Counted from the first letter of the stretch, positions 7,630 to 64,000 are shown. The stretch is 64,000 bases of DNA from Planctomycetota bacterium (GCA_039815565.1 JBCBZB010000012.1:5072-69071); one strand, 5' to 3'. A program made the numbers and translations. The notes: generated by a model not told the origin, from the sequence alone.

Positions 7630-7683
7630 GCCCGTCCGCCCCTCAAGCAGCGACCGTCGAAAACGCCGCTCCGCGGAGATCGC

Positions 7684-11803: not shown

Positions 11804-11859
11804 ACCCTCCTCCGGCGTGAGGCTGGGTCGAAGAGATCCGTCCACGTCGGCCCAGCGCG

Positions 11860-12264
11860 CTAGCGCGACGCGACGGAACGTCGGAACAGATCCCGGCAGT
11901 TCCAGAGCACGAACGCTCCGACCGCGCTGCCGAGCAAGGCATACGGCCATCGGGTGACCGGGTCGACCGCGCGAATCGGCGTCGTGCAGTGCACGCCCTG
12001 AATCACCGCCTCCAGGCGGTATGGGCCCGGCTCCTCGGGCATCGTGATCTCGAGCCGACCGTCCTCGTCGGTAAGCCCGAGCCTGCGCGGCTCCTCGGTC
12101 GCACCCGAATCTTCGTTCGGCGTGACGAACACCTCGACGCCGCCGATCACGTCCCCGCTCGCGGATAAGGTTCGGACCTCGATCGACTCGCCCGCCTCCA
12201 TCGCATCGGGACGCGGCTCGATCGACTGCAAGACACAGACTGTGACCAGCGCGGACAGCAACAT
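11860..12264 (-). CDS. Small membrane-anchored protein with a carboxypeptidase-regulatory-like (CarbopepD_reg) domain
   Basis: N-terminal TM MLLSALVTVCVL. GVEVFV...TDEDGRLEI pattern typical of the Ig-like CarbopepD_reg fold. C-terminal TM YALLGSAVGAFVLW. Confidence 0.5.
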   Translation of the reverse strand: MLLSALVTVCVLQSIEPRPDAMEAGESIEVRTLSASGDVIGGVEVFVTPNEDSGATEEPRRLGLTDEDGRLEITMPEEPGPYRLEAVIQGVHCTTPIRAVDPVTRWPYALLGSAVGAFVLWNCRDLFRRSVASR

Positions 12265-12889: not shown

Positions 12890-12916
12890 CCGCAGTTCGG
12901 CGTAGGATCGCCTGCC

Positions 12917-14635
12917 TTGGAACGCTCGATCGAACTCGACGAGGACCGCGCGCAGCTCGTGCTGCGCTTCGACTACGACAAGTTCCTGGTCGATGAAGTC
13001 CGCGAGCTGCCCGGTCGGCGTTGGGACAAGGGCTCCCGCTGCTGGCGTGTGCCGGCGAAGCACGCCGAGGTCGTCGTGACCACGATGATGCGACACAACT
13101 TCGACGTGTCGCAGCCGGTGATGGAGCTGATCGCCGGAACGCGCGAGCTGGCCGAGCCGAAGGAAGAAGCGACATCGAAGAAGACGTCGAGCCCGCAAGC
13201 CACCGACGACGATCCCGACGCGCCGCTCACGGTGTCGGGACTGAACGAGCGGGTGCGGGATGCGCTGCAAGAGCGCTTCCCCGGCCGGCTCCTGATTCAG
13301 GGCGAGCTGCTCGGGTATGACCGCAGCGCCCAACGGAAGCACGTTTTCTTCCAACTGATCGAGAAAGCCGAAGGTCAGGACCGCCCGCTCGCCGCCGTCG
13401 ACGTGGCGATGTTCGAACGCACCGCACAGCGGGTCCTCAAGAAGCTCGAGGAGAACGGGCTTGAGCTGAAAGACGGCGTCGAGATCCTGGTCGAAGCCAA
13501 GATCGATCTCTACCCAGCGACCGGTCGCTACCAGCTGATCCTCGAGGACATCCGCCCCGAGTTCACCCTCGGCAAGCTCGCTCAGTCGCGCGAACAGGTC
13601 CTCAAGGAGCTGCGAGCGCAGGGCCTCGACGCGCTGAACCGCGACAAGGAACTGCCGAAGCCGAGTCTTCGTGTCGGCGTGTTGACGAGCCCCGAGTCTG
13701 ACGGCTTCGTCGACTTCCTCACCGAGCTCGAGAAGTCCGGACTGCCGTTCGACCTCGGTCTCTATCCGGTGCGCGTCCAAGGCGAGTACTTGAAGCCGAC
13801 CGTTCTGGATGGCCTCCGTTGGTTCTCGAGGCACCAGGACGACTACGACGTCCTCTGCATCTTGCGGGGCGGCGGCTCGCGAACCGATCTCGCCGGCTTC
13901 GACGACAAAGACATTGCGATCCAGGTCGCCGAGCACCCGCTCAAAGTCCTCGTCGGAATCGGGCACGAGCGCGACCAGAGCGTGCTCGATGAAATCACGA
14001 CGTCGATGAAGACACCGACGGCGCTGGCGGCATTCCTCGTCGACCAAGCCCTCGAACTCGAAGCCGAACAGCGCGAGGCAACCCGACGCCTCGTCAACGC
14101 CGTCCGCGACCAACTGACCGAAGCCCGCCGCACCCTTCACCGGAGAGCGGCACAGCTCGAACGTGAGGTCGGACGCAATCTGATTCTCGCACGACGACAG
14201 ATCGACTCGGCTCCGTCACGACTTCGACAGGCTTCTCGCGGCGCGCTGCGGGACGAGCGCCAGTCGATCGCGCACCAAGAGACCCGACTCGTCTCGGCGG
14301 TCTCCCGTCGCAGCGAGCGCGCTCGCGTCGACCTCGAGCGTCGAGCCGAACGACTCCTGGAGACCGCATCCCGACGAATCGAACGGGAACAAACCCGCCT
14401 CGACCGCTTCGAAGATCGGCGACGACTGCTGGACCCCGAACGCGTGCTGCGTCGCGGCTACGCGGTCGTCCGCGACGAGCAGACCGGCCGGGTCTTGCCG
14501 TCGATCGACCGATTCCAGTCCGACCAACGAGCTGTCCTCCAGCTCCGTGATGGCCGTGCCGTCGTGCACGTCGAACGAACCGAACAACACCCGGAAGACG
14601 ACCGGAACGAAACCTCAGCCGATGGCAGCCCGTAA
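12917..14635 (+). CDS. xseA: Exodeoxyribonuclease VII large subunit XseA with an extra N-terminal domain of about 100 aa
   Basis: OB-fold start LTVSGLNERVRDALQERFPGRLLIQGEL. Catalytic core LCILRGGGSRTDLAGFD. Coiled-coil C-terminus. The N-terminal 100 aa (LVLRFDYDKFLVDEVRELPGRRWDKGSRCWRVP) is not part of canonical XseA. Confidence 0.85.
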   Translation: MERSIELDEDRAQLVLRFDYDKFLVDEVRELPGRRWDKGSRCWRVPAKHAEVVVTTMMRHNFDVSQPVMELIAGTRELAEPKEEATSKKTSSPQATDDDPDAPLTVSGLNERVRDALQERFPGRLLIQGELLGYDRSAQRKHVFFQLIEKAEGQDRPLAAVDVAMFERTAQRVLKKLEENGLELKDGVEILVEAKIDLYPATGRYQLILEDIRPEFTLGKLAQSREQVLKELRAQGLDALNRDKELPKPSLRVGVLTSPESDGFVDFLTELEKSGLPFDLGLYPVRVQGEYLKPTVLDGLRWFSRHQDDYDVLCILRGGGSRTDLAGFDDKDIAIQVAEHPLKVLVGIGHERDQSVLDEITTSMKTPTALAAFLVDQALELEAEQREATRRLVNAVRDQLTEARRTLHRRAAQLEREVGRNLILARRQIDSAPSRLRQASRGALRDERQSIAHQETRLVSAVSRRSERARVDLERRAERLLETASRRIEREQTRLDRFEDRRRLLDPERVLRRGYAVVRDEQTGRVLPSIDRFQSDQRAVLQLRDGRAVVHVERTEQHPEDDRNETSADGSP

Positions 14636-18770: not shown

Positions 18771-20828
18771 TCAGCGGAAGTTCAGCAGCGCGCGCGCCTT
18801 CCAACGCAACTCGCGCGGGCCGAGTTCGATCTGCATGAAAGCCCGGTCGACCAAGCGCATGAACGCCTGGTTCTCACGGATGTCGGCGATCGCAGGACCG
18901 AGGAATCCTTCGCGATCCCGCCCCCAACGCCGACTCATCGCCTCCGTGACCTTGTCCTCGAACTCGTCTTGCTGGTCCGGCCGGAGCGACGAGGACGAGC
19001 GGATGCCCGGGTAGCTGTTCCGAAGGACCTGCGCCTCGATCTCACCGCGCACGTCGACCATCCAACCCGGATCTGGAACGTCGGCCTCCTCGACGAGGAA
19101 CGTCACCTGGTCCTCGGCGACCTCGACGAGACGAGGGCCGTTGAGCCAGACGAAACCATTGAGCTTCTGCCCGAGCTCGGCCTCGATCGGCTGGAAGGCC
19201 TTCATGTTGCCGAGGTGGCTCGAGTCGAGCTGCGCCTGAACCATGTTCCGGACGAGGCCGCCGGAGTTCGAGAAGATGAAGAAGTCGCGGAACAGGCAGG
19301 CGACCAGCTGACCGGTCGCCGGAATGTTCGGGCTGTTGAACTCCTGCGCGACGTCTCCGCTCGCCGCGTTGACGATCGGGAGATCGGTCAGCCGGAACTC
19401 GAAGGTCCGGTGCTGCTCCTGCATGAACCGGATCAGGTTGCGGACCTGGCCGCGGAATCGATCGTCAAGCCAGAACACCCAGGCGACATCTGGGTCCGCA
19501 CTCGGGTCGTAGGTCTCGATCCGCTCGGCTCCCTCGGTGTTGAACTGGTTCGGGTCCTGCTGACGCTTGAAGACCACGCCGATGCGGTCGCGCAGCGATG
19601 GGCGTAGCGTCTCGACCAATCCGTCGAGCGACTCGTAGCGGCCCGTCGACTTGATCAACTGGTCGATCTCTCGACGGATCTCGGGATCGATCGCCGCCGC
19701 CATCTCGCGGAGGAAGTCCGCCGCGGGAACACGCAACGCCGCCGCCGCACACGCCTCCCGTGGCACCAGCGTGAAGAACGGGTCGAGCCAGACCCGTCGT
19801 TCCTGCGGCTCGGCACGGAAGAAGTCGGTCTGGAACGACGAGTGTGCGTTCTGGTCGATGCGGATGTCCCCGAGCCAGGTCAGCGAATCCTGCTCAAACA
19901 GGAAGCTGCCGCCGAGGTCCTTGAAGCTCTTGAGGTTCAGGAACGACGACAGCACGCGCTGCTCGACGCTGTCGGGGTGGTTCGCATCTGGCCAGCCGTC
20001 GTCGAACTCGACGTGGTCGAACAGAGCGTTCGTGCGCACGAACATCTCCATCGCGTTCGTGCCCTCTTCGGACACGCCCGTGACGCCCCGCCAGTCTTCG
20101 ATCCGACTGAGGATCTTGTCGCGGTAGAGACTCGAGGTGCCGAACGGACGCGCCTCCGGGTTGTCCGGAATGCCCATCGAGTCCAGCAGCAGCGTCTCAT
20201 CGTTCGCGACCATCAGGCAGTCGCGGTGACGCCCGAGGAACATCGGTGGTTCGCCAGCAGTCTCGATCGTGAAGATGCCGTCGTCACGCGGCGTGATCGT
20301 GGGGCCACCCCCGTCGACAACGCCGGAACGGACACTATCCCAGTCGAGCATCCCGACCCCGGCGCGGATCTTCCAGCTGACTCGCATGTACGCGCACCAC
20401 GCAGCATCGGCGAGTTCCCGCCCTTGCATTCGGCCAGCGAAGATGACTTCGTCGCCGACGACGTCATCCACCAGCGACACGAATCCGCCGGACCCCGCCT
20501 CGATCTGGACCGCGATGTCCTTCAACTGGGCTTCGTAGTCCAGCAGGTCCCGTCGCAAATCCGCGACGGTCTGCCCCTTGCGCAGGTCGCGCCAGGCACG
20601 GGAATTCTCGATGTCCTCGAAGAACGCCGGAGCCGGAAACTCCCCCAGATCGTCTGCGAGGTCGTCCTTCCGCAGGAAGAAGTCGACGTCGGCTGGCACC
20701 ATCCGCCGCATGTCGTCGACGCCCGATTCGAAGGGGTCGAACACAAAGGCAGTGATGCCGATCACCACCAGCACGACCAAGGTGGCGACGATGATGCCGA
20801 GGCGCTTGAAGAGTTTGCGGGACAGCAT
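18771..20828 (-). CDS. Hypothetical 686-aa protein with an N-terminal TM anchor and a large extracytoplasmic domain
   Basis: The ORF from MLSRKLFKRLGIIVATLVVLVVIGI (ATG at 20828) has real-looking composition. The 364 aa upstream of it in the track ORF (to 21923) is antisense to the aminotransferase gene and was excluded. Confidence 0.6.
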   Translation of the reverse strand: MLSRKLFKRLGIIVATLVVLVVIGITAFVFDPFESGVDDMRRMVPADVDFFLRKDDLADDLGEFPAPAFFEDIENSRAWRDLRKGQTVADLRRDLLDYEAQLKDIAVQIEAGSGGFVSLVDDVVGDEVIFAGRMQGRELADAAWCAYMRVSWKIRAGVGMLDWDSVRSGVVDGGGPTITPRDDGIFTIETAGEPPMFLGRHRDCLMVANDETLLLDSMGIPDNPEARPFGTSSLYRDKILSRIEDWRGVTGVSEEGTNAMEMFVRTNALFDHVEFDDGWPDANHPDSVEQRVLSSFLNLKSFKDLGGSFLFEQDSLTWLGDIRIDQNAHSSFQTDFFRAEPQERRVWLDPFFTLVPREACAAAALRVPAADFLREMAAAIDPEIRREIDQLIKSTGRYESLDGLVETLRPSLRDRIGVVFKRQQDPNQFNTEGAERIETYDPSADPDVAWVFWLDDRFRGQVRNLIRFMQEQHRTFEFRLTDLPIVNAASGDVAQEFNSPNIPATGQLVACLFRDFFIFSNSGGLVRNMVQAQLDSSHLGNMKAFQPIEAELGQKLNGFVWLNGPRLVEVAEDQVTFLVEEADVPDPGWMVDVRGEIEAQVLRNSYPGIRSSSSLRPDQQDEFEDKVTEAMSRRWGRDREGFLGPAIADIRENQAFMRLVDRAFMQIELGPRELRWKARALLNFR

Positions 20829-20954
20829 GGGCGGCTGAGGGTAGCCGGATCGCCCGGCGAGGGCCTCGTGGAAGCTCGAGCCTTCGACGATCGAGAGACC
20901 GAAGCCTTCCCCAGGATTTGATAACCACGTCGGCCGTGGCTCCAATCGCCACCA

Positions 20955-22142
20955 ATGCCGGCCATCCCCGTCAGCGCGCGCGCACGCGCGATCAGCGATT
21001 CCGTGACCCTCGCGATCCAGGCCCGGGCCAAGGCGATGCGGGCCGAAGGTGTCGACGTCGTCTCGTTGGGAGCGGGCGAACCGGACTTCGACACGCCCGA
21101 GAACATCCAGGACGCAGGCGTCCAAGCGATCCGCGACGGCCACACCCGCTACACAGCGGTCTCGGGCATGCCGGAACTTCGCACCGCCGCGGCGAAGTGG
21201 TTCAACCGCCACTTCGACCTCGACTACAGCAAGGAGGAGATCATCGTGACGGCCGGCGCCAAGCCCGCGCTGTCGCTCGGCCTGACAGCCGTCCTCAACG
21301 ACGGCGACAGGGTCCTCCTCCCGGCCCCGTTCTGGCCGAGCTACCCGGACATCGTTCGGATCGCCGGCGGCGTGCCGGTACCGCTCGAAGCGGTCCCGGA
21401 GCAGGGGTTCGTGCACACGCCCGACCAACTCGCCAAGGCCTTCGCCGAGACCGGCGCGAAGGGCGTCATGTTCAACTACCCGAACAACCCTTCGGGGGCG
21501 ATCGCGACGCGCGAACAGGTCGAGGGTCTGCTGAAGGTCTGCATCGACCACAACGCCTGGATCGTGTCCGACGAGATCTACGCTCGCCTGCTCTACGACG
21601 GAGCGAAGCACGTGTCGTTCGCCGCCCTCGACGGAGGCAAGGAACGGACGATGATCGTCAACGGCGGAACGAAGAGCCACTCGATGACCGGCTGGCGCGT
21701 CGGCTTCCTCGCGGCGCCGAAGGAGATCGCCGCCGCCGTCGGTCGCATCCAAGGGCAGGCGATCGGCAACACCTGCACGATCAGTCAGCACGCCGCGATC
21801 ACGGTCTGCGAAGAGACGGATAACACCGAGCTCGAGCGTCGACTGGAAACCTACGATGGGCGCCGCCGCCTGATGGTCGAGCGCGTGTCCGCGATCGACG
21901 GCCTCGCGGTCAACCTTCCGCAAGGCGCGTTCTACGCGATGGTCGATTGCCGTCCGGTCTGCCAGCGTGCCGGAATCAACGACATCGAGTTCTGCGAACG
22001 ACTCCTGATCGAGGGCAAAGTCGCGACCGTGCCGGGAACCGCGTTCGAGCTCCCAGGGTTCCTACGCCTGAGCTACGCAGCTTCCACGGACGCGATCGAG
22101 ACGGCGATCGACCGGCTCGGGACCTTCGTAAAATCTCTCTGA
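20955..22142 (+). CDS. aspC: Aspartate/aromatic aminotransferase (PLP fold type I)
   Basis: YPNNPSGA block. PLP-lysine block NGGTKSHSMTGWRVGF. 395 aa. Confidence 0.85.
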   Translation: MPAIPVSARARAISDSVTLAIQARAKAMRAEGVDVVSLGAGEPDFDTPENIQDAGVQAIRDGHTRYTAVSGMPELRTAAAKWFNRHFDLDYSKEEIIVTAGAKPALSLGLTAVLNDGDRVLLPAPFWPSYPDIVRIAGGVPVPLEAVPEQGFVHTPDQLAKAFAETGAKGVMFNYPNNPSGAIATREQVEGLLKVCIDHNAWIVSDEIYARLLYDGAKHVSFAALDGGKERTMIVNGGTKSHSMTGWRVGFLAAPKEIAAAVGRIQGQAIGNTCTISQHAAITVCEETDNTELERRLETYDGRRRLMVERVSAIDGLAVNLPQGAFYAMVDCRPVCQRAGINDIEFCERLLIEGKVATVPGTAFELPGFLRLSYAASTDAIETAIDRLGTFVKSL

Positions 22143-37850: not shown

Positions 37851-39947
37851 ATGACCTACGTGGCCCTGGTCATTGCCCTCCTGGCCGTCGGTCTCGCCGT
37901 GAAACTCTACGGCGAGATCATGCAGCAGGACGAAGGCACCGACCGCATGAAGGAGATCGCTCGCTACATCCAGGCGGGCGGCAAGGCATTCCTCAACGCC
38001 GAGTACAAGTGGCTCTCGGTGTTCGTCGGCATCGTGTTCCTCGCGATGATCGTCACACCGGCGTTCGGCGCGAAGACCGCGCTGGCGTTCCTGCTCGGAG
38101 CGATCGCCTCGGGTGCTGCCGGCTACTTCGGCATGCACACGGCGACCCGCGCTGCGGTGCGCACGACGCAAGCGGCGCGGAGCAGCCTGAGCAAGGCGCT
38201 CGACATCTCCTTCAAGTCGGGAATCGTCATGGGCATGACGGTCGTCGGCCTCGGCCTGACGGGCATCTGCCTCTTGCTGATGTTCTACGGCAAGGACGGC
38301 GAGGCCCTGAACCAGATCCTCGGCTTCTCCTTCGGAGCCTCGTCGATCGCGCTCTTCGCGCGCGTCGGTGGCGGCATCTACACGAAGGCCGCGGACGTCG
38401 GTGCGGACCTGGTCGGCAAGGTCGAAGCCGGCATTCCGGAAGACGACCCGCGCAACCCGGCCACGATCGCGGACAACGTCGGCGACAACGTGGGCGACGT
38501 CGCGGGCATGGGTGCGGACCTCTTCGAGTCGTTCGTCGGCGCGATCCTCGCGACGATGATCCTCGGCGTGTCGCTTGCATCGGGAACCGGTGAAGACCTC
38601 GAGAAGTCGCAGAGCGCGCTGCTGTCCTACCCGCTGGCGATCGCCGCGATGGGCGTCATTGCCTCGTTCCTAGGCACCTTCCTGGTCAAGACCGACGACG
38701 AGAAGAAGCTCAGCCACGCACTGCACAACGGTCTCTTGGCGGCCTCCGGCATCCTGGTCGTCCTGATGGCGATCCTGACCGCGATCGTCAAGCCCGAGAT
38801 CGGCACTGGAGACGACAAGGTCGGTTCCTGGAGCATCTACTTCTCGATGATCATCGGCCTCGCCGCCGGCGTCTTCATCGGCCAGGCGACCGAGTACTTC
38901 ACCTCGGAGAAGAAGAAGCCGGTCCACTGGATCGCGGAGCAGAGCCAGTCGGGCCCGGCGACGAACATCATCGGCGGCCTGGCTGTCGGCATGCAGTCGA
39001 CCTGGCTGCCGGTCGTCCTACTCTCCCTCGCCATCTACGGCTGCTCGGAGCTCGCTGGCGTCTACGGCATCTGCGTCGCCGCGGTTGGCATGCTCGCCAC
39101 CCTGGGCATCTCGCTCGGCATCGACGCCTTCGGCCCGGTCGCCGACAACGCCGGTGGCCTCGCCGAAATGGCCGAGCTCGAGCCGGAAGTCCGCCAGCGC
39201 ACCGACGCCCTCGACGCGACCGGCAACACGACGGCCGCGATCGGTAAGGGATTCGCGATCGGCTCGGCGGCGCTGACGGCGCTCGCTCTGTTCAACACCT
39301 ACCAATCCCAACTCGCCACTGAGTTGGCGGCTAAGGCCTCCGCAGAAGGTGGTGGCCTGGCCGGCATAATCTCTGCTATCGACACCAGCTCGATGCTGAG
39401 CTTGGGCCAACCGATGGTCGTCGTGGGCCTCCTGCTCGGCGCGATGCTGCCGTTCCTGTTCAGCTCGATGGCGATGCGCGCGGTCGGCCTGGCCGCGAAC
39501 GACATGGTCGAAGAGGTGCGCCGCCAGTTCCGGGAGATCCCGGGCATCATGGAAGGCACCGGCAAACCCGACTACGAGCGCTGCGTCGAGATCTCCACGG
39601 CCGGCTCGCTCCGGGCGATGATCGTTCCTGGCCTGCTCGCGGTCATCGCACCGCTCGCAGTCGGCATGATCTTCGGCCCTGCCGCCGTCGCCGGCCTGCT
39701 GGCGGGCGCCCTCGGCTCCGGTGTGATGATGGCACTGTTCATGGCGAACGCCGGCGGTGCCTGGGACAACGCCAAGAAGTACGTCGAAGCCGGTGCCCAC
39801 GGTGGCAAGGGCTCGGACGTCCACAAGGCCGCCGTCATCGGCGACACGGTCGGTGACCCGTTCAAGGACACCGCAGGCCCGTCGATCAACATCCTCATCA
39901 AGCTGATGTCGATCGCCTCGGTCCTGGCGCTGCCGCTCTTCCTCTGA
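37851..39947 (+). CDS. hppA: Membrane-bound proton-translocating pyrophosphatase (H+-PPase)
   Basis: [53 protein letters not shown]. About 16 TM segments. Confidence 0.9.
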
Positions 39948-55752: not shown

Positions 55753-55848
55753 GGGACCTGACACGTGGCAGTGCGTGAGAGTTGGCTGGCCGCCTGCTAG
55801 CCTGTGCGGCCCGGCCCAGCCGGCCCACTTCACCTCGCCACCTCTCCG

Positions 55849-58077
<2,229 letters not shown>

Positions 58078-58156
58078 TCGAACGCGGGACCACGGCTCCC
58101 GCGCCCCTTACACTGATTCGGGACGGACACCCTCCGTTCCGTCAGGACCAAGCCCG

Positions 58157-58600
58157 ATGACCCAGACCACCATCGTTCTCGCGACCGACTTCTCGCAGGA
58201 AGCCCAGCGCGCCTACGGCCCGACCGTGGATATGGCGGAGCGACTCGGCGGCAAGATCGTGCTCGCGCACGTCGTCGAAGCAGCGCTGATCTCGCCCCAC
58301 GGCGCCCCGCTCGCGCCGGCGCAGGTCGCTCCAGACACCCCGCAACGGGTCGACGAAGCTGAAGAGCAGCTGAAGAAGGAAGCCCAGCTGCTCGGAGACC
58401 GGGTGCCCGTCGAGGTCAAGGCAAGCTCGCACGAAACCTGTGCCGAAGGTCTGGTCCGCCTCGCCGACGGTGTCGGCGCAACGCACATCGCGATCTCGAC
58501 GCACGGCCGAACGGGCCTGCGGCGACTGGTCCTCGGCAGCGTGGCCGAAGGCGTCGTCCGCTACGCGACCGTGCCGGTCATCTGCTATCCGGCTCACTGA
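58157..58600 (+). CDS. Universal stress protein (UspA family)
   Basis: ATP-binding-type C-terminal motif GSVAEGVVRYATVPV. 147 aa. Confidence 0.75.
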   Translation: MTQTTIVLATDFSQEAQRAYGPTVDMAERLGGKIVLAHVVEAALISPHGAPLAPAQVAPDTPQRVDEAEEQLKKEAQLLGDRVPVEVKASSHETCAEGLVRLADGVGATHIAISTHGRTGLRRLVLGSVAEGVVRYATVPVICYPAH

Positions 58601-58687
58601 GCCTGAACGGCCCCGCGGAGTTGGCCGACCCGACCGAGGGTCAGCCGCTCCGGCCGCGCTCGGTTCGCCGCGCGGCTGGGCGCGCGA

Positions 58688-59737
58688 TCACGCCGAGCGG
58701 CTGCGCTCGACGATCTGCTGCGCCAGTCGATCCGCGGCATCGCTGGTCGGGATCTTCTCGCTGTCGGAGATCTGCCAGACTTCGCGCAGCGCTTCGGGGA
58801 TCCGCTGGATGCGTTCGACGGCGACACCCTCGTCGTAGCCACCCTCGCGGAACTCGACCGACACGTTGACGATACCGCCCGCGTTGATGACGTAGTCCGG
58901 CGCGTAGACGACCTTCTTCTCGAAGAGCTCACGGCCGTGTTGCGGCTCGGCGAGCACGTTGTTCGCGACGCCGGCAATGGCCTTGCACTTCAGCCGACCG
59001 ATCGTGTCGTCGTTCACGACCGCGCCCATCGCGCAGGGCGCGAAGACATCCATGTCGACGTCGTAGATCTCGTCGGCGCCGACGGCCTGAACACCGTGAG
59101 CATCGACGAGCGCTTGGACCCGCTCCTCGTTCCGGTCGGTGACCGACACGATCGCGCCATCCTTAACGAGTCGCTCGACGAGCGCGGAGCCGGTCGCTCC
59201 GACGCCCTGGACCGCAACCTTCTTGCCGGTGATGTCTTCCGAGCCGAACGCGCGGCCGCAGGCGGCTTTCAGTCCGAGGAAAACGCCGTAGGCCGTGTAG
59301 GGCGACGGGTTGCCGGAGCCACCGTCGTCCCGGCTGAGACCGGTGACGTGGCGGGTCGCACGGCGCACGGTCTCGAGGTCCGAGACCCCGATGTTCATGT
59401 CTTCGGCCGTGACGTAGAGGCCGTCGAGCGAATCGACGAACCGGCCCATCGCGAGGAACAACGCCTCGGACTTGATCGACGGATCGCCCAGGATCACCGA
59501 CTTGCCGCCGCCAAGGCCAGTGTGGGCGATCGCCGACTTGAAGGTCATGCCACGGCTGAGACGCAGCACGTCGGTCAGCGCCTCGTCCTCGGACGCGTAC
59601 GGCCACATGCGCATGCCGCCGAGGGCCGGGCCGAGGGTCGTGTCGTGGACCGAGATGATCGCGTGCAGGCCGGACTCCGGGTCCTTGGCCCTGACGACGC
59701 GTTCGTAACCGTCGATCGAAAGTTCGGTGATCTCCAT
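58688..59737 (-). CDS. ldh: Leucine (Glu/Leu/Phe/Val family) dehydrogenase
   Basis: GGGKSV catalytic Lys block. Rossmann GVGATGSALV. Start at the ATG at 59737 (MEITELSIDGYE). Confidence 0.8.
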   Translation of the reverse strand: MEITELSIDGYERVVRAKDPESGLHAIISVHDTTLGPALGGMRMWPYASEDEALTDVLRLSRGMTFKSAIAHTGLGGGKSVILGDPSIKSEALFLAMGRFVDSLDGLYVTAEDMNIGVSDLETVRRATRHVTGLSRDDGGSGNPSPYTAYGVFLGLKAACGRAFGSEDITGKKVAVQGVGATGSALVERLVKDGAIVSVTDRNEERVQALVDAHGVQAVGADEIYDVDMDVFAPCAMGAVVNDDTIGRLKCKAIAGVANNVLAEPQHGRELFEKKVVYAPDYVINAGGIVNVSVEFREGGYDEGVAVERIQRIPEALREVWQISDSEKIPTSDAADRLAQQIVERSRSA

Positions 59738-59955
59738 GGAGGTGTCGGGGGGCTGCCCCAGGAGCAAGAAGGCTCGGGGCGAAGGGCGGAGTAGCTTAGC
59801 GACGCCGACCCGTGACGCCATCGCTGCCAGGGATTCCGAGACGGCGCATGCGCGCCAGAATTCGGCCTACCGCAACCTGAGTTTGGACCACCTGTTCTGG
59901 CGGTCGAGCGAAACCGCGAGCCCCTCTCGGAGGCCCGCGGTAGATTCGTCCCCGC

Positions 59956-60750
59956 ATGGCAAAAGGCCAGATCGTCTCGATTCACTCCTACCGCGGTGGG
60001 ACCGGCAAGAGCAACCTGACGGCCAACGTCGCGTTCCAGCTCGCGACCCGGGGCAAGCGTGTCGCCGTTCTCGACACCGACCTCCAGTCGCCCGGCGTCC
60101 ACATGGTGCTGCAGCTCGACACCAAGCGCCTGTCACACACACTGTCCGACTACCTATTCGGCACCTGCGAGATCGACGAAGCGGCCTACGACATGTCGGC
60201 CAGGCTGCCGGACGAATCGACTGGCAAACTGTGGCTGCTTCCCTCGAGCATGGCCGTCGACAAGATCGTCAAGATCGCGCACGACGGCTACGACGCGAAC
60301 CGACTCAACGATCAGCTCGACCAACTGATCGAAGACCTCGAACTCGACTATCTGATCCTCGATACGCACCCCGGGCTCAACCGGGAGACGATGCTGTCGA
60401 CCGCGATCTCGCAGATCTTGATCGTGCTGATTCGACCCGACACCCAAGACTTCCACGGCACCGCGGTGTTGATGGAGGTCGCCGGCCGACTTGGCGTTCC
60501 GCACGTCTTCATGGTCGGCAACAAGGTCCCCAGAGCCCTCGACCACGGCGAGTTGAAGACACGGATCGAGCAGAGCTTCAACCGCGAGGTCCTCGGACTC
60601 CTTCCGCTCGCCGAAGACCTGGCCGCGCTCGGGAGCAACGGACTCTTCTCCGAGAAGATGGCGGATCATCCAGCGAGCCGCGAACTGAACCGCATCGTCG
60701 ACGGCCTGCTCGCACGAACGGAGCCGAAGGGCGGAGGCGGGGCGTCGTGA
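59956..60750 (+). CDS. ParA/MinD-like P-loop ATPase (deviant Walker A), stand-alone
   Basis: SYRGGTGKSNLTANVA deviant Walker A. DTDLQSP. DYLILDTHPG Walker B. No N-terminal DNA-binding or C-terminal membrane-targeting helix is evident. Confidence 0.75.
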   Translation: MAKGQIVSIHSYRGGTGKSNLTANVAFQLATRGKRVAVLDTDLQSPGVHMVLQLDTKRLSHTLSDYLFGTCEIDEAAYDMSARLPDESTGKLWLLPSSMAVDKIVKIAHDGYDANRLNDQLDQLIEDLELDYLILDTHPGLNRETMLSTAISQILIVLIRPDTQDFHGTAVLMEVAGRLGVPHVFMVGNKVPRALDHGELKTRIEQSFNREVLGLLPLAEDLAALGSNGLFSEKMADHPASRELNRIVDGLLARTEPKGGGGAS

Positions 60751-61736
60751 GCGAGAACGCGTCGGGCCGCCCCCAGGACCAAGCGATCGCTCGCGAGGTA
60801 CCGCTCAAGCGCGAGCGCTTCTCGACGATCGAGCGGATGGTCAGGAACGACGACTACCGCGTCGTCTTGTCTCTCGGTGGCGGAGCCCTCCCGGGACTTG
60901 CCGGAAACATCGCACTGCTCCGCATCCTCGAAGAGCTCGACCTCAAGCCGCACATCGAAGAGGTCTGGGGCACGAGCGCCGGCGCGGTCGTCGGCGGCGG
61001 TTGGGCCGCCGGCACGCCTGCCTACGACATTCTCGACCTCGTCGCGAGTCTCGCCGAAAAGGGATCGGTCGATGCGAACCCACTGAAGTTCGCGTTGTCG
61101 ATCCTGGCGTCGTGCAAGCCACTCAAGCGCCCGCTTCCCGACGGCGTCGTCGCCGGGAAGGCGTTCCGCAAGAAGATCGCCGGCGGACTGCGTGTCGACC
61201 GGATCGAAGACTGCCCGACGCCGTTCCGCGCCGTCGCCTGCACAGACGACGGAATGGGCAGGACCAAGGTGTTCCGCAAGGGACCGATGATGCCTGCGAT
61301 CTATTCGAGCATGGCGATCCCGGGCGTGATGGCGTCCTACCCGGGCGACGACGACGGCAACACCTACTTCGACGGCGGCCTCGTCGAGAAGACGCCTCTG
61401 AAGTCGGTCATCGCGGACCACAGCCGCAGCAGCGACCAGCGCAAGCTGCTGATCCTCGCCTCACACTTCCAGAACGAAGCCCGCGAGAAGTCCACGGGTC
61501 TGGTGAAGCGATTCCTCGCGACGATCTACGTGCTCGAGGAGCTTATCTGGGACTACCAGATCAAGGAGGCCCGCGAACGCGACGACGTCACGGTGACGAT
61601 GCTCGACCCTCACCTCAGCGGATTCAGCCTGTTCGCGTTCGATAAGACCGTCGACGCCTACCTCGAGTCGCGCGATGCGTTCGCGAACTCCATCCAGAAC
61701 ACCAGCATCGTCGCCTCCCTCGGCGGCATGCTCTGA
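60747..61736 (+). CDS. Patatin-like phospholipase
   Basis: GTG start overlapping the upstream stop (GTGA). Oxyanion-hole LSLGGGALPG. Catalytic GTSAG (GxSxG). DGG catalytic Asp motif in YFDGGLVE. Confidence 0.8.
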   Translation: MSENASGRPQDQAIAREVPLKRERFSTIERMVRNDDYRVVLSLGGGALPGLAGNIALLRILEELDLKPHIEEVWGTSAGAVVGGGWAAGTPAYDILDLVASLAEKGSVDANPLKFALSILASCKPLKRPLPDGVVAGKAFRKKIAGGLRVDRIEDCPTPFRAVACTDDGMGRTKVFRKGPMMPAIYSSMAIPGVMASYPGDDDGNTYFDGGLVEKTPLKSVIADHSRSSDQRKLLILASHFQNEAREKSTGLVKRFLATIYVLEELIWDYQIKEARERDDVTVTMLDPHLSGFSLFAFDKTVDAYLESRDAFANSIQNTSIVASLGGML

Positions 61737-61757
61737 TCGAGCCAGTTAGAACCCGCG

Positions 61758-62654
61758 ATGCAGCAGCAGTTCGACGACCGCAACCAAAGCCTCGTCTACA
61801 ACGTCAACGGCCGACTGATCGGCCGGGACGAGCCGGGCCTCTCCCCGTTCGACTCTTCGGTCCAGGGTGGCGACGCGGTCTGGGAAGGCCTGCGCGTCTA
61901 CGAAGGCAAGATCTTCCGGCTACAGCAGCACCTCGAGCGTCTGCGGCACTCCGCCAAGGCTCTGGCCTTCTCCGAGATCCCGGGCGACGACGCCATACGA
62001 ACCGAGATCCGCCGCACACTCGAAGCGAACTCGATGCACGACGACGTGCACATTCGCCTGACGCTGACGCGCGGGGTGAAGATCACCTCGGGTATGGACC
62101 CACGCCTGAACCAAGCCGGCCCGACCTTGATCGTCCTCGCCGAGCACAAACCGCCGGTCTACGGATCCGAGGGGATCACGTTGCACACGAGCTCGATCCG
62201 CCGATTCCGCGCGGACCAGATGGATCCGAAGATCCATCACAACAACCTGATCCAGTCGATCCTCGCGAAGATCGAGGCGAACGCGGCCGGCGCTGATGAC
62301 GCGTTGATGCTGGACAGCGATGGGTTCATCGCCGAGACGAACGCAACCCACGTGTTCTGTGTCGAGGGCGGCACGGTCGTGACGTCCACCTGCAAGGCCT
62401 GCCCCGAGGGCGTGACCCGGAGCGTGGTGCTGAAGCTGTGTGAGGATGACGGCATCCCGTTCCGCGTCGGCGACTACTCGCAGGCCGAGCTCTACCGAGC
62501 CGACGAAGCGTTCTGCACCGGCACGATGGGCGAGCTCGTCCCGGTGTTCGAAGTCGACGGACGCCCGATCGGCGAGAAGCGCATGGGACCCGTGACCGAG
62601 GCGCTGCGGACCAAATTCCGCGGGATCGCACGAACCCAAGCCGAAGCGATCTAG
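61758..62654 (+). CDS. Class IV aminotransferase (branched-chain/D-amino-acid aminotransferase or ADC-lyase family)
   Basis: Fold-type IV blocks: EGLRVYEGKIFRL, RHSAKA, ETNATHVF. Confidence 0.75.
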   Translation: MQQQFDDRNQSLVYNVNGRLIGRDEPGLSPFDSSVQGGDAVWEGLRVYEGKIFRLQQHLERLRHSAKALAFSEIPGDDAIRTEIRRTLEANSMHDDVHIRLTLTRGVKITSGMDPRLNQAGPTLIVLAEHKPPVYGSEGITLHTSSIRRFRADQMDPKIHHNNLIQSILAKIEANAAGADDALMLDSDGFIAETNATHVFCVEGGTVVTSTCKACPEGVTRSVVLKLCEDDGIPFRVGDYSQAELYRADEAFCTGTMGELVPVFEVDGRPIGEKRMGPVTEALRTKFRGIARTQAEAI

Positions 62655-62723
62655 TTCGCAACCCGGTCCACAGCCTCGAATCCCGGGCTGGACATAGCCG
62701 GCTTTGCATGGCAGAGTCCGGCC

Positions 62724-64000
62724 CGTGAGGAGTTCATCTTCGTCGTCGGGAAGCACGCTTTCCCACCGACTTCGACGAGCGGCCGTCCCCGCCGGGTTGG
62801 CGCTGCTCCTCGGAATCGGTGTCGGCACTCAATGGCCCGACGGCGAACGGGCGGAATCGCCCCCTCGAGCCGAACCGAACCCAAGCGTCGACACGGACTC
62901 GCGGACCGTCGCGGCAAGCGACAACGGAACCGCGAGGCGCCGGGCGAGCGCGACCGAGTCGCCGAGCGCCGACGGTTCGGTCACACGTCGGACCGACCTC
63001 GCGGGCATCGTACGTGACCTCGACGGGGACCCTCTCTCTGGCGCCAAGGTCGTCCTGCTCGAAGGCGACGGCGGAGCTTGGAACGAACGGTCCTCGCTCG
63101 TGACCGACGACACCGGTCGATTCCGGTTCGACGGCGTCCGAGACCCCCAGTGGCAGGTGTCCGCCCACTTCGAGGACCTGTTCTTCCTTCCCCGCCACCC
63201 GAAGAACCTCGGCTCGCGGGAACGAGGCGACCTCGAACTCTCCGCGCAAGAGGGTCACCACACCGCACTCGACCTGCGGCTCCCAGACGGCACGACGCCC
63301 GACCGCGCGGAGCTGCGGCTTCAGTGGAACCGCACCTGGCGCGCGCTGTGGACCCCCGCGAGCCCAAGCATCTGTGTCCCTCAAGGTCTGGTCACCATTC
63401 GCGCCCTGACCTCGCTCGGCGCGGACAACGACAGCGATTCGGACGCGGGCTCCCTCGACCTCGCCTCAGAGGCCGGCGCATTCCGAATCCGCGCCCAGGA
63501 CGAAGGCCCTCTTCGGATCGAACTCAGCCCGCGAACGTCGCTCGAGATTTCGATCCGGTCCGAGTTCGCACGACTCGACGACCTGCTCGTCGCCTTGGCG
63601 CGCCCCAACCCGAACACGGAGGGGGCTCCGTTCTCCGTCCGTGGCTATCACTCCCCCGAGTCGGGAAAGATCGAGATCGGGGACGTTCTCCCCGGCGAGA
63701 TCGAGCTGCGGTTCGTCGGCCGCGCCAACCTTCGGCGCACCGGCTCAACGAACTATCACGTCGAACGCCATCGCATCGAAGCCGGCCAACGAAACCTCGT
63801 CGCCGTCGAGCTTCCTCCACCGGACCCGAGAGACTTCCTGGTCGTGAGCTGCGTCGATTCAACCGATCGGCTCCTACCGGAGTGCTCGTTCGGACGACTC
63901 GACCCACCAGCTACGGAGGGCGGACGACCCGTGCGGCAACACGTGACACCGTTCGCGCTCGGAGACCGGCGGCTCCTATTCGATCGCGAACACCTGTTCG
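62724..64000 (+). CDS. Membrane-anchored CarbopepD_reg-like domain protein (3'-truncated at the window edge; no in-frame ATG, GTG start)
   Basis: Continuous open frame from the GTG at 62724 to the window end. It is absent from the Met-initiated ORF track. TM AAVPAGLALLLGIGVG. VVLLEGDGGAWNERSSLVTDDTGRFRFDGV CarbopepD_reg-like block. Confidence 0.5.

What the first reader, a model, noticed from the sequence alone, without database searches (positions are those of the whole stretch)
59956..61736. Translationally coupled ParA/MinD-like ATPase plus patatin-like phospholipase, a candidate two-gene module of unknown function
A stand-alone deviant-Walker-A ATPase (SYRGGTGKS, 264 aa) overlaps by GTGA a patatin-like lipase. 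The lipase has an intact GGGxxG oxyanion hole, a GTSAG nucleophile and a DGG Asp motif.

The pair is separated by more than 200 bp of promoter-like DNA from the divergent ldh gene, and is followed by an unrelated aminotransferase.

ParA/MinD ATPases normally partner with DNA-binding ParB, MinE/MinC or flagellar proteins. Patatins act as effectors in CBASS and other abortive-infection systems, and in lipid remodelling. I do not know a ParA-gated or ParA-localised phospholipase as a described system.

It could represent spatially regulated membrane lipolysis (polar lipid remodelling) or a defence-like NTPase-effector pair.
Basis: partly seen in the sequence, partly recalled or inferred. Interest (0 to 1): 0.7.

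Follow-up and report, generated by a model that had tools for sequence, protein, structure and literature searches.

The report
MinD-like switch ATPase coupled to lipase
A planctomycete gene pair, an unusual MinD-like ATPase overlapping a dedicated patatin-type lipase, is the conserved core of a lipid-metabolism operon; the ATPase belongs to a large, apparently undescribed family wired into signalling, and looks like a regulatory switch rather than a cell-division, DNA-partition or phage-defence protein.

Summary
A 264-aa MinD/ParA-fold ATPase (59956-60750) overlaps by GTGA a 329-aa patatin-fold hydrolase (60747-61736) with an intact Ser-Asp dyad.

The pairing is conserved. In the ATPase's own clade, 22 of 23 evaluable genomes carry the orthologous patatin downstream. 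It is either adjacent, or follows an inserted block of alpha/beta-hydrolase, enolase-family, GH3 and alpha/beta-hydrolase genes. A small FHA protein is usually convergent, and a Ser/Thr kinase is often directly upstream. In the reverse direction, 16 of 17 patatin orthologues in metagenomes have the ATPase or that block upstream.

The ATPase family has an Arg in place of the signature Lys (HSYRGGTGKS). Sister clades pair with glutaminase or a multipass membrane protein. Other members are fused to receiver, PAS, HisKA or Cache-HAMP domains, or to winged-helix domains.

There is no MinC/E or ParB, no defence context and no viral copies.

Best reading: an ATP-dependent dimerisation switch under phospho-signalling control gates a cytoplasmic acyl hydrolase. 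That hydrolase works in membrane-lipid remodelling, possibly supplying free fatty acids to a GH3 aminolipid pathway. The mechanism is inferred, not shown. I found no description in the searchable literature. Verdict: new variant of a known kind.

The parts
59956..60750 (+). MinD/ParA-fold ATPase, 264 aa, of the 'HS[FY]R-GG-x-GK[ST]' subfamily
   Evidence: ORF and translation. Pfam AAA_31, ParA and CbiA. AF2 model pLDDT 90.9; best PDB match is A. fulgidus MinD-1, 1HYQ, TM 0.79/0.90. 100% identical to a protein NCBI names MinD/ParA family, Planctomycetota MAG.
59983..60015 (+). Deviant Walker A, HSYRGGTGKSN: Arg13 at the signature-lysine position, with Lys18 and Ser19 retained
   Evidence: Coordinates. 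RGGTGKS in 117 of 120 closest homologues. R13, G14-G17, K18 and S19 are at least 95% conserved over 86 family members.
60073..60102 (+). Switch I region, DTDLQSPGVH (Asp40 and Asp42 invariant)
   Evidence: The equivalence to the catalytic Asp pair of MinD is from knowledge of the family.
60361..60381 (+). Walker B / switch II, DTHPGLN
60433..60462 (+). RPDTQDFHGT, the start of the helix that corresponds to MinD helix 7 (the partner-binding groove in MinD); near-invariant across all clades
   Evidence: Aligned to 'NPEISSITDG' of 1HYQ. Conservation. The functional equivalence is an inference.
60733..60737 (+). GGAGG, 9 nt before the patatin GTG and inside the ATPase coding sequence
   Evidence: Sequence.
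60747..60750 (+). GTGA start/stop overlap (translational coupling)
   Evidence: Comparable ATGA, GTGA or TGATG junctions in at least 10 of 26 clade members. 4-bp overlaps also appear in independent gene calls for L128 and L129.
60747..61736 (+). Patatin-fold acyl hydrolase, 329 aa, of a discrete subfamily dedicated to this operon
   Evidence: Pfam Patatin. AF2 pLDDT 92.3; best PDB match PlpD, 5FYA. 93 homologues at E <= 2.3e-40, then a drop to 2.9e-9. No signal peptide or TM segment evident.
60801..60842 (+). Conserved N-terminal segment PLKRERFSTIERMV (family consensus PLDPxRYxTLRRL) ahead of the patatin core
   Evidence: Alignments A2 and A3. Predicted helical with high confidence. Function unknown.
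60876..60896 (+). Glycine-rich oxyanion motif GGGALPG, which lacks the usual Arg/Lys
   Evidence: Alignment to PlpD (GGAARG) and ExoU (GGGAKG).
60969..60983 (+). Nucleophile elbow GTSAG (Ser77)
   Evidence: Invariant W-G-T-S-A-G.
61371..61379 (+). Catalytic Asp motif DGG (Asp209)
   Evidence: Invariant D209 and G210.
59822..59955 (.). Divergent intergenic region, presumed to hold the operon promoter (134 bp; 188 bp if the dehydrogenase starts at 59767)
   Evidence: No sigma-70-type match, no Rfam match, and not alignable with L002 or L004.

Best explanation
The pair is the minimal core of a conserved, chromosomally stable operon for regulated lipid turnover.

**The lipase.** The second gene encodes a cytoplasmic patatin-fold acyl hydrolase with an intact Ser77-Asp209 dyad. 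It lacks the phosphate-binding basic residue typical of phospholipase A2-type patatins. It most likely releases fatty acids from membrane or neutral lipids. In many relatives the same operon also encodes a GH3 acyl-acid amido synthetase, an enolase-superfamily (MLE-type) enzyme and two alpha/beta-fold hydrolases or acyltransferases. The only characterised bacterial relative of that GH3 is OlsH, which makes N-acyl-ornithine from free fatty acid and ATP. In those genomes the patatin plausibly feeds free fatty acids into aminolipid (N-acyl amino acid) synthesis or remodelling.

**The ATPase.** The first gene encodes a MinD-fold ATPase that acts as a nucleotide-dependent dimerisation switch. It is not a divisome or DNA-partition protein. 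ATP-bound dimers would bind, hold in check or activate the co-translated hydrolase. The switch would be set by Ser/Thr phospho-signalling: a small GarA-like FHA protein encoded convergently, and in many relatives a receptor Ser/Thr kinase directly upstream.

**What is shown.** Gene structure, folds, catalytic motifs, conservation and reciprocity of the linkage, clade-by-partner co-segregation, the signalling neighbourhoods and the domain fusions of the ATPase family.

**What is inferred.** A physical ATPase-patatin interaction, the direction of control, the substrate, and the free-fatty-acid supply role.
For: **Linkage**
- The patatin orthologue lies downstream of the ATPase in 22 of 80 genome loci. 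These are all in the ATPase clade nearest the window. Within that clade 22 of 25 have it, and two of the three exceptions are truncated contigs.
- Reciprocal test: of 17 metagenome loci with a patatin orthologue and at least 1 kb upstream, 16 have the ATPase or the GH3/hydrolase block upstream.
- At least 22 contigs are shared between the two independent protein searches.
- Independent gene calls with Pfam labels show ATPase-patatin-FHA(-) and ATPase-ABH-MLE-GH3-ABH-patatin-(DUF445)-FHA(-).
- Start/stop overlaps after the ATPase are frequent.

**Specific pairing**
- An NJ tree of 86 ATPases splits cleanly by downstream gene: patatin clade, glutaminase clades, and a clade paired with a 964-aa membrane protein.
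- The patatin subfamily is discrete.

**Competence**
- The ATPase keeps K18/S19, D40/D42 and D136, and has a confident MinD fold.
- The patatin dyad is invariant and the fold is confident.

**Regulatory role of the ATPase family**
- 51 of 80 loci carry FHA, Ser/Thr kinase, PAS/SpoIIE, STAS or RsbW-like genes within 6 kb. A cNMP-binding protein overlaps the ATPase start in some.
- Among the 150 best representatives, about 30 exceed 300 aa. In 17 of the 20 scanned, the ATPase is fused to REC, HisKA(+REC), PAS, dCache-HAMP, HTH-PAS or TIR domains upstream, or to winged-helix domains downstream.

**Lipid pathway**
- The GH3 in the extended operon hits only the OlsH model.
- OlsH uses free fatty acids plus ATP, and free fatty acid availability was proposed to limit it in E. 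coli (PMC12493201; PMC12971839).
Against: - No interaction, activity or phenotype data exist.
- The window lacks the GH3 block, so the free-fatty-acid supply role cannot be the whole story here.
- The GH3 of relatives scores far below the OlsH cut-off (99.8 bits against 620). The hydrolases match OlsI no better than other alpha/beta hydrolases.
- The ATPase is so conserved that only two conservative positions separate the patatin-linked from the glutaminase-linked clades. This argues against a clade-specific enzyme-binding surface, and suggests its direct partner may be something common to all clades rather than the enzyme.
- I saw no shared N-terminal peptide among the different downstream proteins.
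- The kinase cluster is defined by the kinase domain only and has mixed architectures. Planctomycetes encode many such kinases.
- In the window's closest relatives no kinase is nearby.
Confidence: 0.5

Rival explanations
1. Cargo positioning. The ATPase is a classical ParA/MinD-type positioning ATPase. It spaces or localises an enzyme assembly (patatin, with or without the aminolipid enzymes) on the nucleoid or membrane, giving spatially restricted lipolysis.
For: The MinD fold and catalytic residues are intact. ParA/MinD ATPases are typically encoded next to their cargo or adaptor genes (review PMC11407121). ATPase clades co-segregate with the downstream gene.
Against: There is no C-terminal amphipathic membrane-targeting helix and no hydrophobic segment. 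The protein is acidic, pI about 5.4. No adaptor with a recognisable shared N-terminal peptide was found. Family members are fused to REC, PAS, HisKA and Cache-HAMP inputs and to wHTH outputs. That is the grammar of signal transduction, not of positioning systems.
Confidence: 0.15
2. Assembly factor or scaffold. Like BcsQ in cellulose synthase, the ATPase is a stable ATP-bound dimer that nucleates or stabilises an enzyme complex. It might, for example, channel detergent-like free fatty acids from patatin to GH3. It would not act as a signal-responsive switch.
For: It is the first gene of tightly overlapping multi-enzyme operons. BcsQ-type structures are among the fold matches. Very high sequence conservation fits a structural role.
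Against: In the window and many relatives only one enzyme follows. The same ATPase family pairs with unrelated single enzymes such as glutaminase. The signalling fusions and neighbourhoods point to regulation.
Confidence: 0.15
3. Defence or abortive infection. An NTPase sensor paired with a membrane-destroying patatin effector, analogous to CBASS CapV or other NTPase-effector pairs.
For: Patatins are effectors in CBASS. There is weak PADLOC similarity: patatin to the CBASS phospholipase model at E 1e-5, and the ATPase P-loop to candidate PDC-M28B at 1.7e-13. One related ATPase is fused to a TIR domain, though it carries KGGTGKT. CapV and CapE appear among the fold matches.
Against: The PADLOC matches are partial: N-terminal 65 residues for the patatin, P-loop half for the ATPase. 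No CD-NTase or other sensor is within 6-10 kb. The flanks are housekeeping (heme, tryptophan, transaldolase, isocitrate dehydrogenase) and syntenic in relatives. ATPase identity is 50-70% across phyla, unlike fast-evolving defence genes. Neither protein has a relative in 2.9 million viral contigs. The linkage to biosynthetic lipid enzymes also argues against it.
Confidence: 0.05
4. Fortuitous adjacency. Two unrelated genes merely share a transcript in this MAG.
For: None beyond the general frequency of 4-bp overlaps in GC-rich genomes.
Against: Linkage is conserved and reciprocal across Planctomycetota, Gammaproteobacteria, Binatia and unclassified MAGs. It survives insertion or loss of a 4.5-kb block between the two genes.
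Confidence: 0.02

Closest known systems
MinD (archaeal MinD-1, PDB 1HYQ; bacterial MinD with MinC/MinE)
   Same: Same fold, with the best sequence and structure matches: E 9e-21; TM 0.79/0.90; 26% identity. It has a deviant Walker A with GK[ST], the switch I Asp pair and Walker B. The region equivalent to the MinD partner-binding groove is the most conserved surface.
   Different: An invariant Arg replaces the signature Lys. There is no membrane-targeting helix and no minC or minE neighbour. It scores 54-88 bits against NCBIfam MinD cut-offs of 202-213.
FleN/FlhG antiactivator acting on FleQ/FlrA
   Same: A MinD-like ATPase whose ATP-bound dimer binds and modulates the activity of a partner protein rather than positioning DNA. 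This is the closest functional analogy for the proposed switch (fold matches; review PMC11407121).
   Different: No flagellar or FleQ context, different P-loop, and the partner here would be an enzyme. The analogy is functional and untested.
BcsQ of the bacterial cellulose secretion system
   Same: A MinD/ParA-fold ATPase that is a subunit or regulator of an enzyme machine and is encoded in its operon (fold matches 6YAY and 6YB5).
   Different: Weak Pfam CBP_BcsQ match only (18.9 bits, below the 21.3 cut-off). No bcs genes.
Bacterial patatins PlpD / RssA and the CBASS effectors CapV / CapE
   Same: Patatin fold, GxSxG Ser and DG[GA] Asp dyad. The closest solved structure is PlpD at 24% identity, followed by CapV and CapE.
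   Different: It is a discrete subfamily. The motif is GGG[SA]xPG without Arg or Lys. It is cytoplasmic with no POTRA or beta-barrel, and has no cyclic-nucleotide sensor partner. It scores only 31 bits on the RssA model against a cut-off of 272.
OlsH/OlsI GH3-dependent ornithine-lipid pathway of planctomycetes (PMC12493201)
   Same: Relatives of the window operon encode a GH3 enzyme whose only NCBIfam hit is OlsH, plus alpha/beta-fold proteins. OlsH needs free fatty acids, which a patatin could supply.
   Different: The GH3 is a distant paralogue (99.8 bits against 620). The published operon (OlsH-OlsG-OlsI) has no ATPase, patatin or enolase-family gene mentioned. The window itself has no GH3 gene.
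GarA/OdhI small FHA regulators with Ser/Thr kinases (PknG/PknB)
   Same: The linked FHA protein is about 150-175 aa. It has an N-terminal acidic Thr motif (DDxxxT[LIV]), one FHA domain, and Ser/Thr kinases nearby. GarA-type proteins regulate metabolic enzymes directly (the GarA mechanism is from knowledge).
   Different: It scores 39.9 bits against the OdhI cut-off of 200. It has an extra conserved C-terminal helix. Targets are unknown. Phosphorylation is not shown.
KGGVGR-motif variant ATPase (NCBIfam NF047398) and the inactive MinD/ParA-like domains of VMAP ternary conflict systems (PMC7159879)
   Same: Second-best NCBIfam hit (85.5 bits). These are MinD-like domains combined with signalling or effector domains.
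   Different: Below the cut-off of 90. [quoted passage not shown] No vWA-MoxR context.

Membership tests
ParA/MinD superfamily (SIMIBI, deviant Walker A ATPases) | MinD/ParA alpha-beta fold | tested here: met
   AF2 model pLDDT 90.9. Foldseek top hits are all MinD, FlhG, FleN, Soj or BcsQ, probability 1.00. Pfam AAA_31, ParA and CbiA are above their cut-offs.
ParA/MinD superfamily (SIMIBI, deviant Walker A ATPases) | Signature lysine at the start of the deviant Walker A (KGGxxGK[ST]) | tested here: not met
   Arg13 replaces it (HSYRGGTGKS). R is found in 117 of 120 close homologues, and is at least 95% conserved over 86 members. R occupies that position in 66 of the 80 wider-family representatives with a GGxGK[ST]-type P-loop, and most of the other 70 read HS[FY]R-x-G-x-GK[ST] on inspection.
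ParA/MinD superfamily (SIMIBI, deviant Walker A ATPases) | Walker A Lys/Ser, switch I Asp pair, Walker B Asp | tested here: met
   K18, S19, D40, D42 and D136 are invariant.
Bacterial MinD (septum site determination) | Reaches the curated family score | tested here: not met
   TIGR01968: 54.1 bits against 212.9. PRK10818: 32.9 against 508. Archaeal TIGR01969: 88.5 against 201.75.
Bacterial MinD (septum site determination) | C-terminal amphipathic membrane-targeting helix | tested here: not met
   The C-terminus is variable, Gly/Asp/Ser-rich and not conserved. No hydrophobic segment. This is sequence inspection only.
Bacterial MinD (septum site determination) | minC / minE partner genes nearby | tested here: not met
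   None among the annotated neighbour clusters of 80 genome loci and 5 long contigs.
ParABS partition ATPase | Adjacent parB/parS, and the curated family score | tested here: not met
   ParA_partition scores 44.3 bits against 180, over residues 6-45 only. No ParB-like neighbour.
Patatin-like phospholipase family (PF01734) | Pfam gathering score and patatin fold | tested here: met
   66 bits against 27.7. AF2 pLDDT 92.3. Top structural hits are PlpD, CapV and patatin.
Patatin-like phospholipase family (PF01734) | Ser-Asp catalytic dyad (GxSxG and DG[GA]) | tested here: met
   GTSAG and DGG are invariant in alignments A2 and A3.
Patatin-like phospholipase family (PF01734) | Oxyanion-hole motif GGxR/KG with a basic residue | tested here: not met
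   The Gly-rich motif is present as GGG[SA]xPG. The position aligned to the Arg of PlpD or the Lys of ExoU is variable or Pro.
Patatin-like phospholipase family (PF01734) | Lipid acyl hydrolase activity | not testable with these tools
   Needs an enzyme assay.
CBASS or other patatin-effector defence systems | Linked CD-NTase or other sensor; a match to defence-system models; mobile or defence-island context | tested here: not met
   PADLOC gives only partial matches. No cyclase in the neighbourhoods. No relatives in viral contigs. Flanks are housekeeping and syntenic.
OlsH/OlsI GH3 aminolipid pathway | GH3 synthetase and alpha/beta-fold O-acyltransferase in the operon, reaching the curated scores | tested here: not met
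   The window has no GH3, MLE or ABH genes. In relatives the GH3 scores 99.8 against 620 and the ABH 38.9 against 385.
KGGVGR-motif variant AAA ATPase (NF047398) | Curated score and the KGGVGR motif | tested here: not met
   85.5 bits against 90. The motif here is RGGTGKS, with the Walker Lys retained.
GarA/OdhI-type FHA regulator (the linked FHA gene, outside the window) | Curated score; an N-terminal phospho-Thr motif that is phosphorylated by a Ser/Thr kinase | tested here: inconclusive
   OdhI model scores 39.9 bits against 200. A conserved DDxxxT[LIV] N-terminal motif and intact FHA residues are seen. Phosphorylation is not testable here.

The most novel reading that the evidence does not exclude
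The 'HS[FY]R' MinD-like ATPases form a widespread, undescribed class of signal-transduction switch. In this reading an Arg-finger variant of the ParA/MinD dimerisation cycle serves as the output of receiver, PAS, Cache-HAMP, partner-switching and Ser/Thr-kinase/FHA inputs. When stand-alone, the switch directly gates a co-translated catabolic hydrolase: patatin here, glutaminase in cyanobacteria. ParA/MinD chemistry would then have been recruited for post-translational enzyme control, and this operon would be a tractable entry point.
Probability: 0.3. Interest if true: 0.8.

Novelty: new variant of a known kind. Interest (0 to 1): 0.6.

Why it matters
ParA/MinD ATPases are known as positioning machines for DNA, divisomes, carboxysomes, flagella and chemoreceptor arrays. 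A few regulate a partner directly (FleN, MipZ, BcsQ).

A large, cross-phylum subfamily with an Arg in place of the signature Lys is specifically paired with single metabolic hydrolases. It is embedded in or fused to signalling modules. This would extend the family's repertoire to signal-dependent enzyme control.

It also gives ParA/MinD researchers a new 'cargo' class to test, using the same neighbourhood logic they already apply.

For bacterial lipid biology, the extended operon places a dedicated patatin next to a GH3 acyl-amino-acid synthetase. The recently described GH3 (OlsH) aminolipid route needs free fatty acids of unknown origin. This operon suggests a source, and points to an uncharacterised N-acyl amino acid lipid pathway in planctomycetes and other phyla.

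Tried and rejected
- **Canonical MinD/ParA/FlhG.** Rejected on curated scores, P-loop, C-terminus and neighbours.
- **Defence system.** PADLOC scan, viral-contig scans and context gave no support.
- **Metallochaperone or Fe-S carrier reading,** prompted by invariant His/Cys. Set aside because patatin and glutaminase are not metalloenzymes and there is no CxxC-type motif. Not tested further.
- **cis-regulatory RNA or promoter upstream of the ATPase.** No Rfam hit at E <= 1, no sigma-70-type consensus, and the region is not alignable among relatives.
- **A shared N-terminal ATPase-docking peptide** in patatin, hydrolase, glutaminase and the 964-aa protein. None is evident by eye.
- **Specificity-determining positions** between patatin-linked and glutaminase-linked ATPases. 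Only L39V and A223V were found, which is uninformative.
- **A conserved small gene next to FHA.** The 113-aa and 125-aa ORFs are unrelated.
- **Literature searches** for a ParA/MinD-patatin or -glutaminase system and for the P-loop motifs found nothing relevant. The MinD/ParA-like domains in PMC7159879 are a different, inactive kind.
- **Complex prediction.** Not possible with the tools, which predict single chains only.
Full report
**What is in the window**

On the + strand, an ATG at 59956 opens a 264-aa ORF ending with TGA at 60748-60750. A GTG at 60747 opens a 329-aa ORF ending at 61736. The two share GTGA. A GGAGG lies 9 nt upstream of the GTG.

An independent gene call on an identical public contig gives the same two genes. 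That contig is L001, 100% identical to window 57108-64000 and 6.75 kb longer. The source is a Planctomycetota MAG.

Pfam assigns the first protein to AAA_31, ParA and CbiA, and the second to Patatin.
- SYRGGTGKS
- GTSAG
- DGG

Three details need correcting.
1. The glycine-rich motif is GGGALPG and lacks the Arg or Lys that PlpD and ExoU have at the aligned position.
2. The divergent upstream gene is a Glu/Leu/Phe/Val-family dehydrogenase.
3. The intergenic gap is 134-188 bp, with no sigma-70 consensus and no Rfam match.

**The ATPase is a MinD-fold protein but not a MinD or ParA**

An AF2 model (pLDDT 90.9) matches A. fulgidus MinD-1 best (TM 0.79/0.90, 26% identity). MinD, FlhG, FleN, Soj and BcsQ follow. 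A profile search of PDB sequences agrees.

It falls below every curated NCBIfam cut-off:

| Model | Score (bits) | Cut-off |
|---|---|---|
| Archaeal MinD | 88.5 | 201.75 |
| Bacterial MinD | 54.1 | 212.9 |
| ParA_partition | 44.3 | 180 |
| KGGVGR variant | 85.5 | 90 |

The position of the signature lysine is an Arg in 117 of 120 closest homologues. It is at least 95% conserved across 86 family members. The Walker Lys/Ser, the switch I Asp pair and the Walker B Asp are invariant. The protein should therefore bind and hydrolyse ATP.

The C-terminus is variable and not amphipathic. The protein is acidic and has no hydrophobic segment.

**The pairing is conserved and reciprocal**

They come from Planctomycetota, cyanobacteria, Chloroflexota, Binatia, Acidobacteriota and Proteobacteria. 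The 80 best loci were analysed.

The window's patatin has an orthologue (34-54% identity) downstream of the ATPase in 22 of them. All 22 lie in one ATPase clade that includes the window. In that clade 22 of 25 loci have it. Two of the three exceptions end inside the intervening genes, and one (L032) truly lacks it within 6 kb.

Two architectures occur:
- ATPase-patatin.
- ATPase, alpha/beta hydrolase (Hydrolase_4), enolase-superfamily MR_MLE, GH3, alpha/beta hydrolase, patatin.

Independent gene calls with precomputed Pfam labels confirm both. They show 4-bp overlaps and housekeeping flanks such as heme and tryptophan biosynthesis, transaldolase and PhoH.

Start/stop overlaps after the ATPase recur in at least 10 of 26 clade members, whichever gene follows.

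For the reverse test I used a patatin alignment to fetch 43 metagenome loci. Of 17 with an orthologue and at least 1 kb upstream, 16 have the ATPase or the GH3/hydrolase block upstream. Where the contig is long enough, the ATPase lies further up. Only L082 does not fit.

The patatin subfamily is discrete. There are 93 homologues at E <= 2.3e-40, then a drop to 2.9e-9. At least 22 of them sit on the same contigs as ATPase hits.

**Other conserved neighbours**

A small FHA protein (about 150-175 aa) is convergent just after the patatin in most clade members: 15 of 25 genome loci and about 18 metagenome loci.

In the window's genome it lies about 5 kb further on, at window-equivalent 66825-67307 (-), beyond the window end. 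It is separated from the patatin by three genes: a class IV aminotransferase and two CarboxypepD_reg proteins. Those three genes are absent in the closest relatives L002 and L004, where FHA follows directly.

The FHA proteins share three features:
- an N-terminal DDxxxT[LIV] motif
- intact FHA signature residues
- a conserved C-terminal helix

This architecture recalls GarA/OdhI. That is a resemblance, not a membership: the OdhI model scores 39.9 bits against a cut-off of 200.

A Ser/Thr protein kinase is present in 11 of 25 clade loci. It is often immediately upstream on the same strand. The kinases have mixed architectures.

**The ATPase family as a whole is wired into signalling and pairs with different enzymes**

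In an NJ tree the ATPases split by downstream gene:
- patatin clade
- glutaminase clades (cyanobacteria, Pirellulales, one Burkholderiales)
- a clade followed by a 964-aa protein with 11 predicted TM segments and no Pfam domain (Binatia, Acidobacteriota, Chloroflexota)

Of the 80 loci, 51 carry FHA, kinase, PAS/SpoIIE (PP2C), STAS or RsbW-like genes. A cNMP-binding protein overlaps the ATPase start in others.

An exhaustive profile search of 1.84 billion representatives found 507 clusters at E <= 1e-30. Among the best 150, about 30 exceed 300 aa. In 17 of the 20 I scanned, the ATPase is fused to other domains:

| Position relative to ATPase | Fused domains |
|---|---|
| N-terminal | REC; HisKA; HisKA-REC; PAS (x1-3); REC-PAS; HTH-PAS; dCache-HAMP; TIR |
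| C-terminal | Winged-helix domains (MarR_2, HTH_45, EutK_C-like) |

In this wider family the P-loop reads HS[FY]R-[G/R/H]-G-x-GK[ST]. This is the domain grammar of a signalling switch or output module. I take it as the strongest evidence for how the stand-alone protein in the window works.

One observation cuts the other way. Only two conservative positions distinguish patatin-linked from glutaminase-linked ATPases. The surface that corresponds to the MinC/MinE groove of MinD (RPDxQDFHGT, GSxGLF) is invariant across clades. So the ATPase's direct partner may be common to all clades, rather than the variable enzyme.

**What the patatin probably does**

The fold is confident (pLDDT 92.3) and closest to PlpD, then CapV, CapE and plant patatin. 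The dyad is invariant. No signal peptide or TM segment is evident.

The missing basic residue hints at a substrate other than a classical phospholipid head group. This is an inference from knowledge of cPLA2 and patatin motifs.

In relatives, the intervening GH3 protein has a single NCBIfam hit: OlsH, the lyso-ornithine-lipid synthetase (99.8 bits, far below 620). The MR_MLE protein resembles muconate cycloisomerase, OSBS and N-acyl-amino-acid racemase-type enzymes.

OlsH was shown in Singulisphaera to make N-acyl-ornithine from free fatty acid, ATP and ornithine. An alpha/beta-fold protein (OlsI) adds the second acyl chain. The authors proposed that scarce free fatty acid explains the lack of activity in living E. 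coli (PMC12493201; PMC12971839).

A patatin in the same operon as a GH3 paralogue is therefore a plausible free-fatty-acid supplier or remodelling enzyme for an uncharacterised N-acyl amino acid lipid.

The window has no GH3, MLE or hydrolase genes. Here only the regulated lipase remains, or the partners lie elsewhere in the genome.

**Rivals**

- *Cargo positioning* remains possible. It lacks a membrane or DNA anchor and sits badly with the fusions.
- *A BcsQ-like scaffold role* is possible, mainly for the extended operon.
- *Defence* is poorly supported. PADLOC matches are partial. There is no sensor. The context is housekeeping and syntenic. The ATPase evolves slowly. 2.9 million viral contigs hold no relatives.
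- *Chance adjacency* is excluded by the reciprocal conservation.

**Novelty and verdict**

Nine literature searches found no description of this ATPase subfamily, its motifs, or a ParA/MinD-patatin or ParA/MinD-glutaminase module. The MinD/ParA-like domains in the conflict systems of PMC7159879 are fused, predicted-inactive versions in a different context. The library lacks most subscription-journal papers, so absence is not proof.

I rate the finding a new variant of a known kind. ATP-dimer-dependent partner control by a MinD-fold protein has precedents in FleN, MipZ and BcsQ. The P-loop variant, the enzyme partners and the signalling integration appear new.

The physical mechanism is inferred. 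Multimer prediction, binding and activity assays, and lipidomics would decide it.

Noticed in passing
Proteins P0228, P0230, P0234, P0235, P0236, P0263, P0274, P0286, P0288, P0302, P0348 (N-terminal fusions); P0239, P0262, P0315 and about 7 others of 366-387 aa (C-terminal fusions): Close relatives of the window ATPase (215-300 bits to its profile) are fused to REC, HisKA, HisKA-REC, PAS, REC-PAS, HTH-PAS, dCache-HAMP or TIR domains, or carry a C-terminal winged-helix domain. In HisKA-ATPase proteins the MinD-like domain sits where a histidine kinase would have its HATPase_c domain.
   Followed up: partly
L025, L034, L036, L040 (Pirellulales); L033, L048, L052, L053, L056-L058, L062, L063, L070, L075-L078 (cyanobacteria); L072 (Burkholderiales): about 6760-7900 in most loci: A sister clade of the ATPase is followed directly by a glutaminase A gene (above the NCBIfam cut-off). 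An FHA protein is often upstream, with PAS/SpoIIE, STAS and RsbW-like genes nearby. The same ATPase logic applies with a different hydrolase.
   Followed up: partly
L027:2383-5277, L030:766-3666, L042:2855-5142, L066:1311-4241, L071:6771-8300: In Binatia, Acidobacteriota and Chloroflexota the ATPase is followed by a roughly 964-aa protein. It has no Pfam or NCBIfam match, a conserved cytoplasmic N-terminus (DELFTRDEALGGLPARRAATLLF) and about 11 predicted TM segments.
   Followed up: partly
L008:6770-12389, L125:10001-16404, L126:10001-17560: This is an extended operon: ATPase, Hydrolase_4, MR_MLE, GH3, Hydrolase_4, patatin, (DUF445), FHA(-). It is a candidate pathway for an uncharacterised N-acyl amino acid lipid. 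The GH3 is a distant paralogue of OlsH. A conserved roughly 510-aa protein with no Pfam match precedes the ATPase in several of these loci.
   Followed up: partly
L001:9718-10200 (-), equivalent to window position 66825-67307, outside the window; alignment: The linked small FHA proteins share an N-terminal DDxxxT[LIV] motif and a conserved C-terminal helix (IDxxxVxxEAxxLL). The architecture is GarA/OdhI-like and suggests autoinhibition by phosphorylation.
   Followed up: partly
window 61758-62654 (+): A class IV aminotransferase (BCAT / D-amino-acid transaminase family, below the equivalog cut-offs) starts 21 bp after the patatin stop with no terminator-like site between them. It is absent from all related loci, so it is a lineage-specific insertion. 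With two CarboxypepD_reg genes, it separates the patatin from its FHA gene.
   Followed up: partly
window 58688-59821 (-): The divergent Glu/Leu/Phe/Val-family dehydrogenase has as its best model Trp dehydrogenase ScyB (354.8 bits, cut-off 600). It keeps this position only in the two closest relatives (L002, L004), together with a universal stress protein gene (window 58157-58600).
   Followed up: no
window 5303-6244 (+) and 10017-11081 (+): The same window holds two further SIMIBI ATPases. One is a MinD/FlhG/MipZ-like protein of 313 aa. The other is an Mrp/ApbC-type Fe-S carrier (FeS_assembly_P + ParA, 316.7 bits). So the genome has conventional family members besides the RGGTGKS protein.
   Followed up: no
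L079:5204-6004, L055:3684-4427, L026:6772-7485: A cNMP-binding-domain protein is encoded next to the ATPase in three distant loci. In L079 its stop overlaps the ATPase start by 4 bp.
   Followed up: no
L082:1-1302 and L032:9388-12750: These are the two exceptions to the linkage. One patatin orthologue has about 800 bp of non-coding DNA and an unrelated 151-aa ORF upstream instead of the ATPase. One Phycisphaerales chromosome has ATPase-ABH-GH3 but no patatin within 6 kb.
   Followed up: no
window 18771-21923 (-) and 11468-14140 (-): Two long ORFs (1050 and 890 aa) have no Pfam match. In a 66% GC genome they may be shadow ORFs of genes on the other strand. Not examined.
   Followed up: no
window 55804-58077 (+), 37851-39947 (+): The surroundings are housekeeping: monomeric isocitrate dehydrogenase and an H+-translocating pyrophosphatase. 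This fits a core-chromosome location.
   Followed up: no
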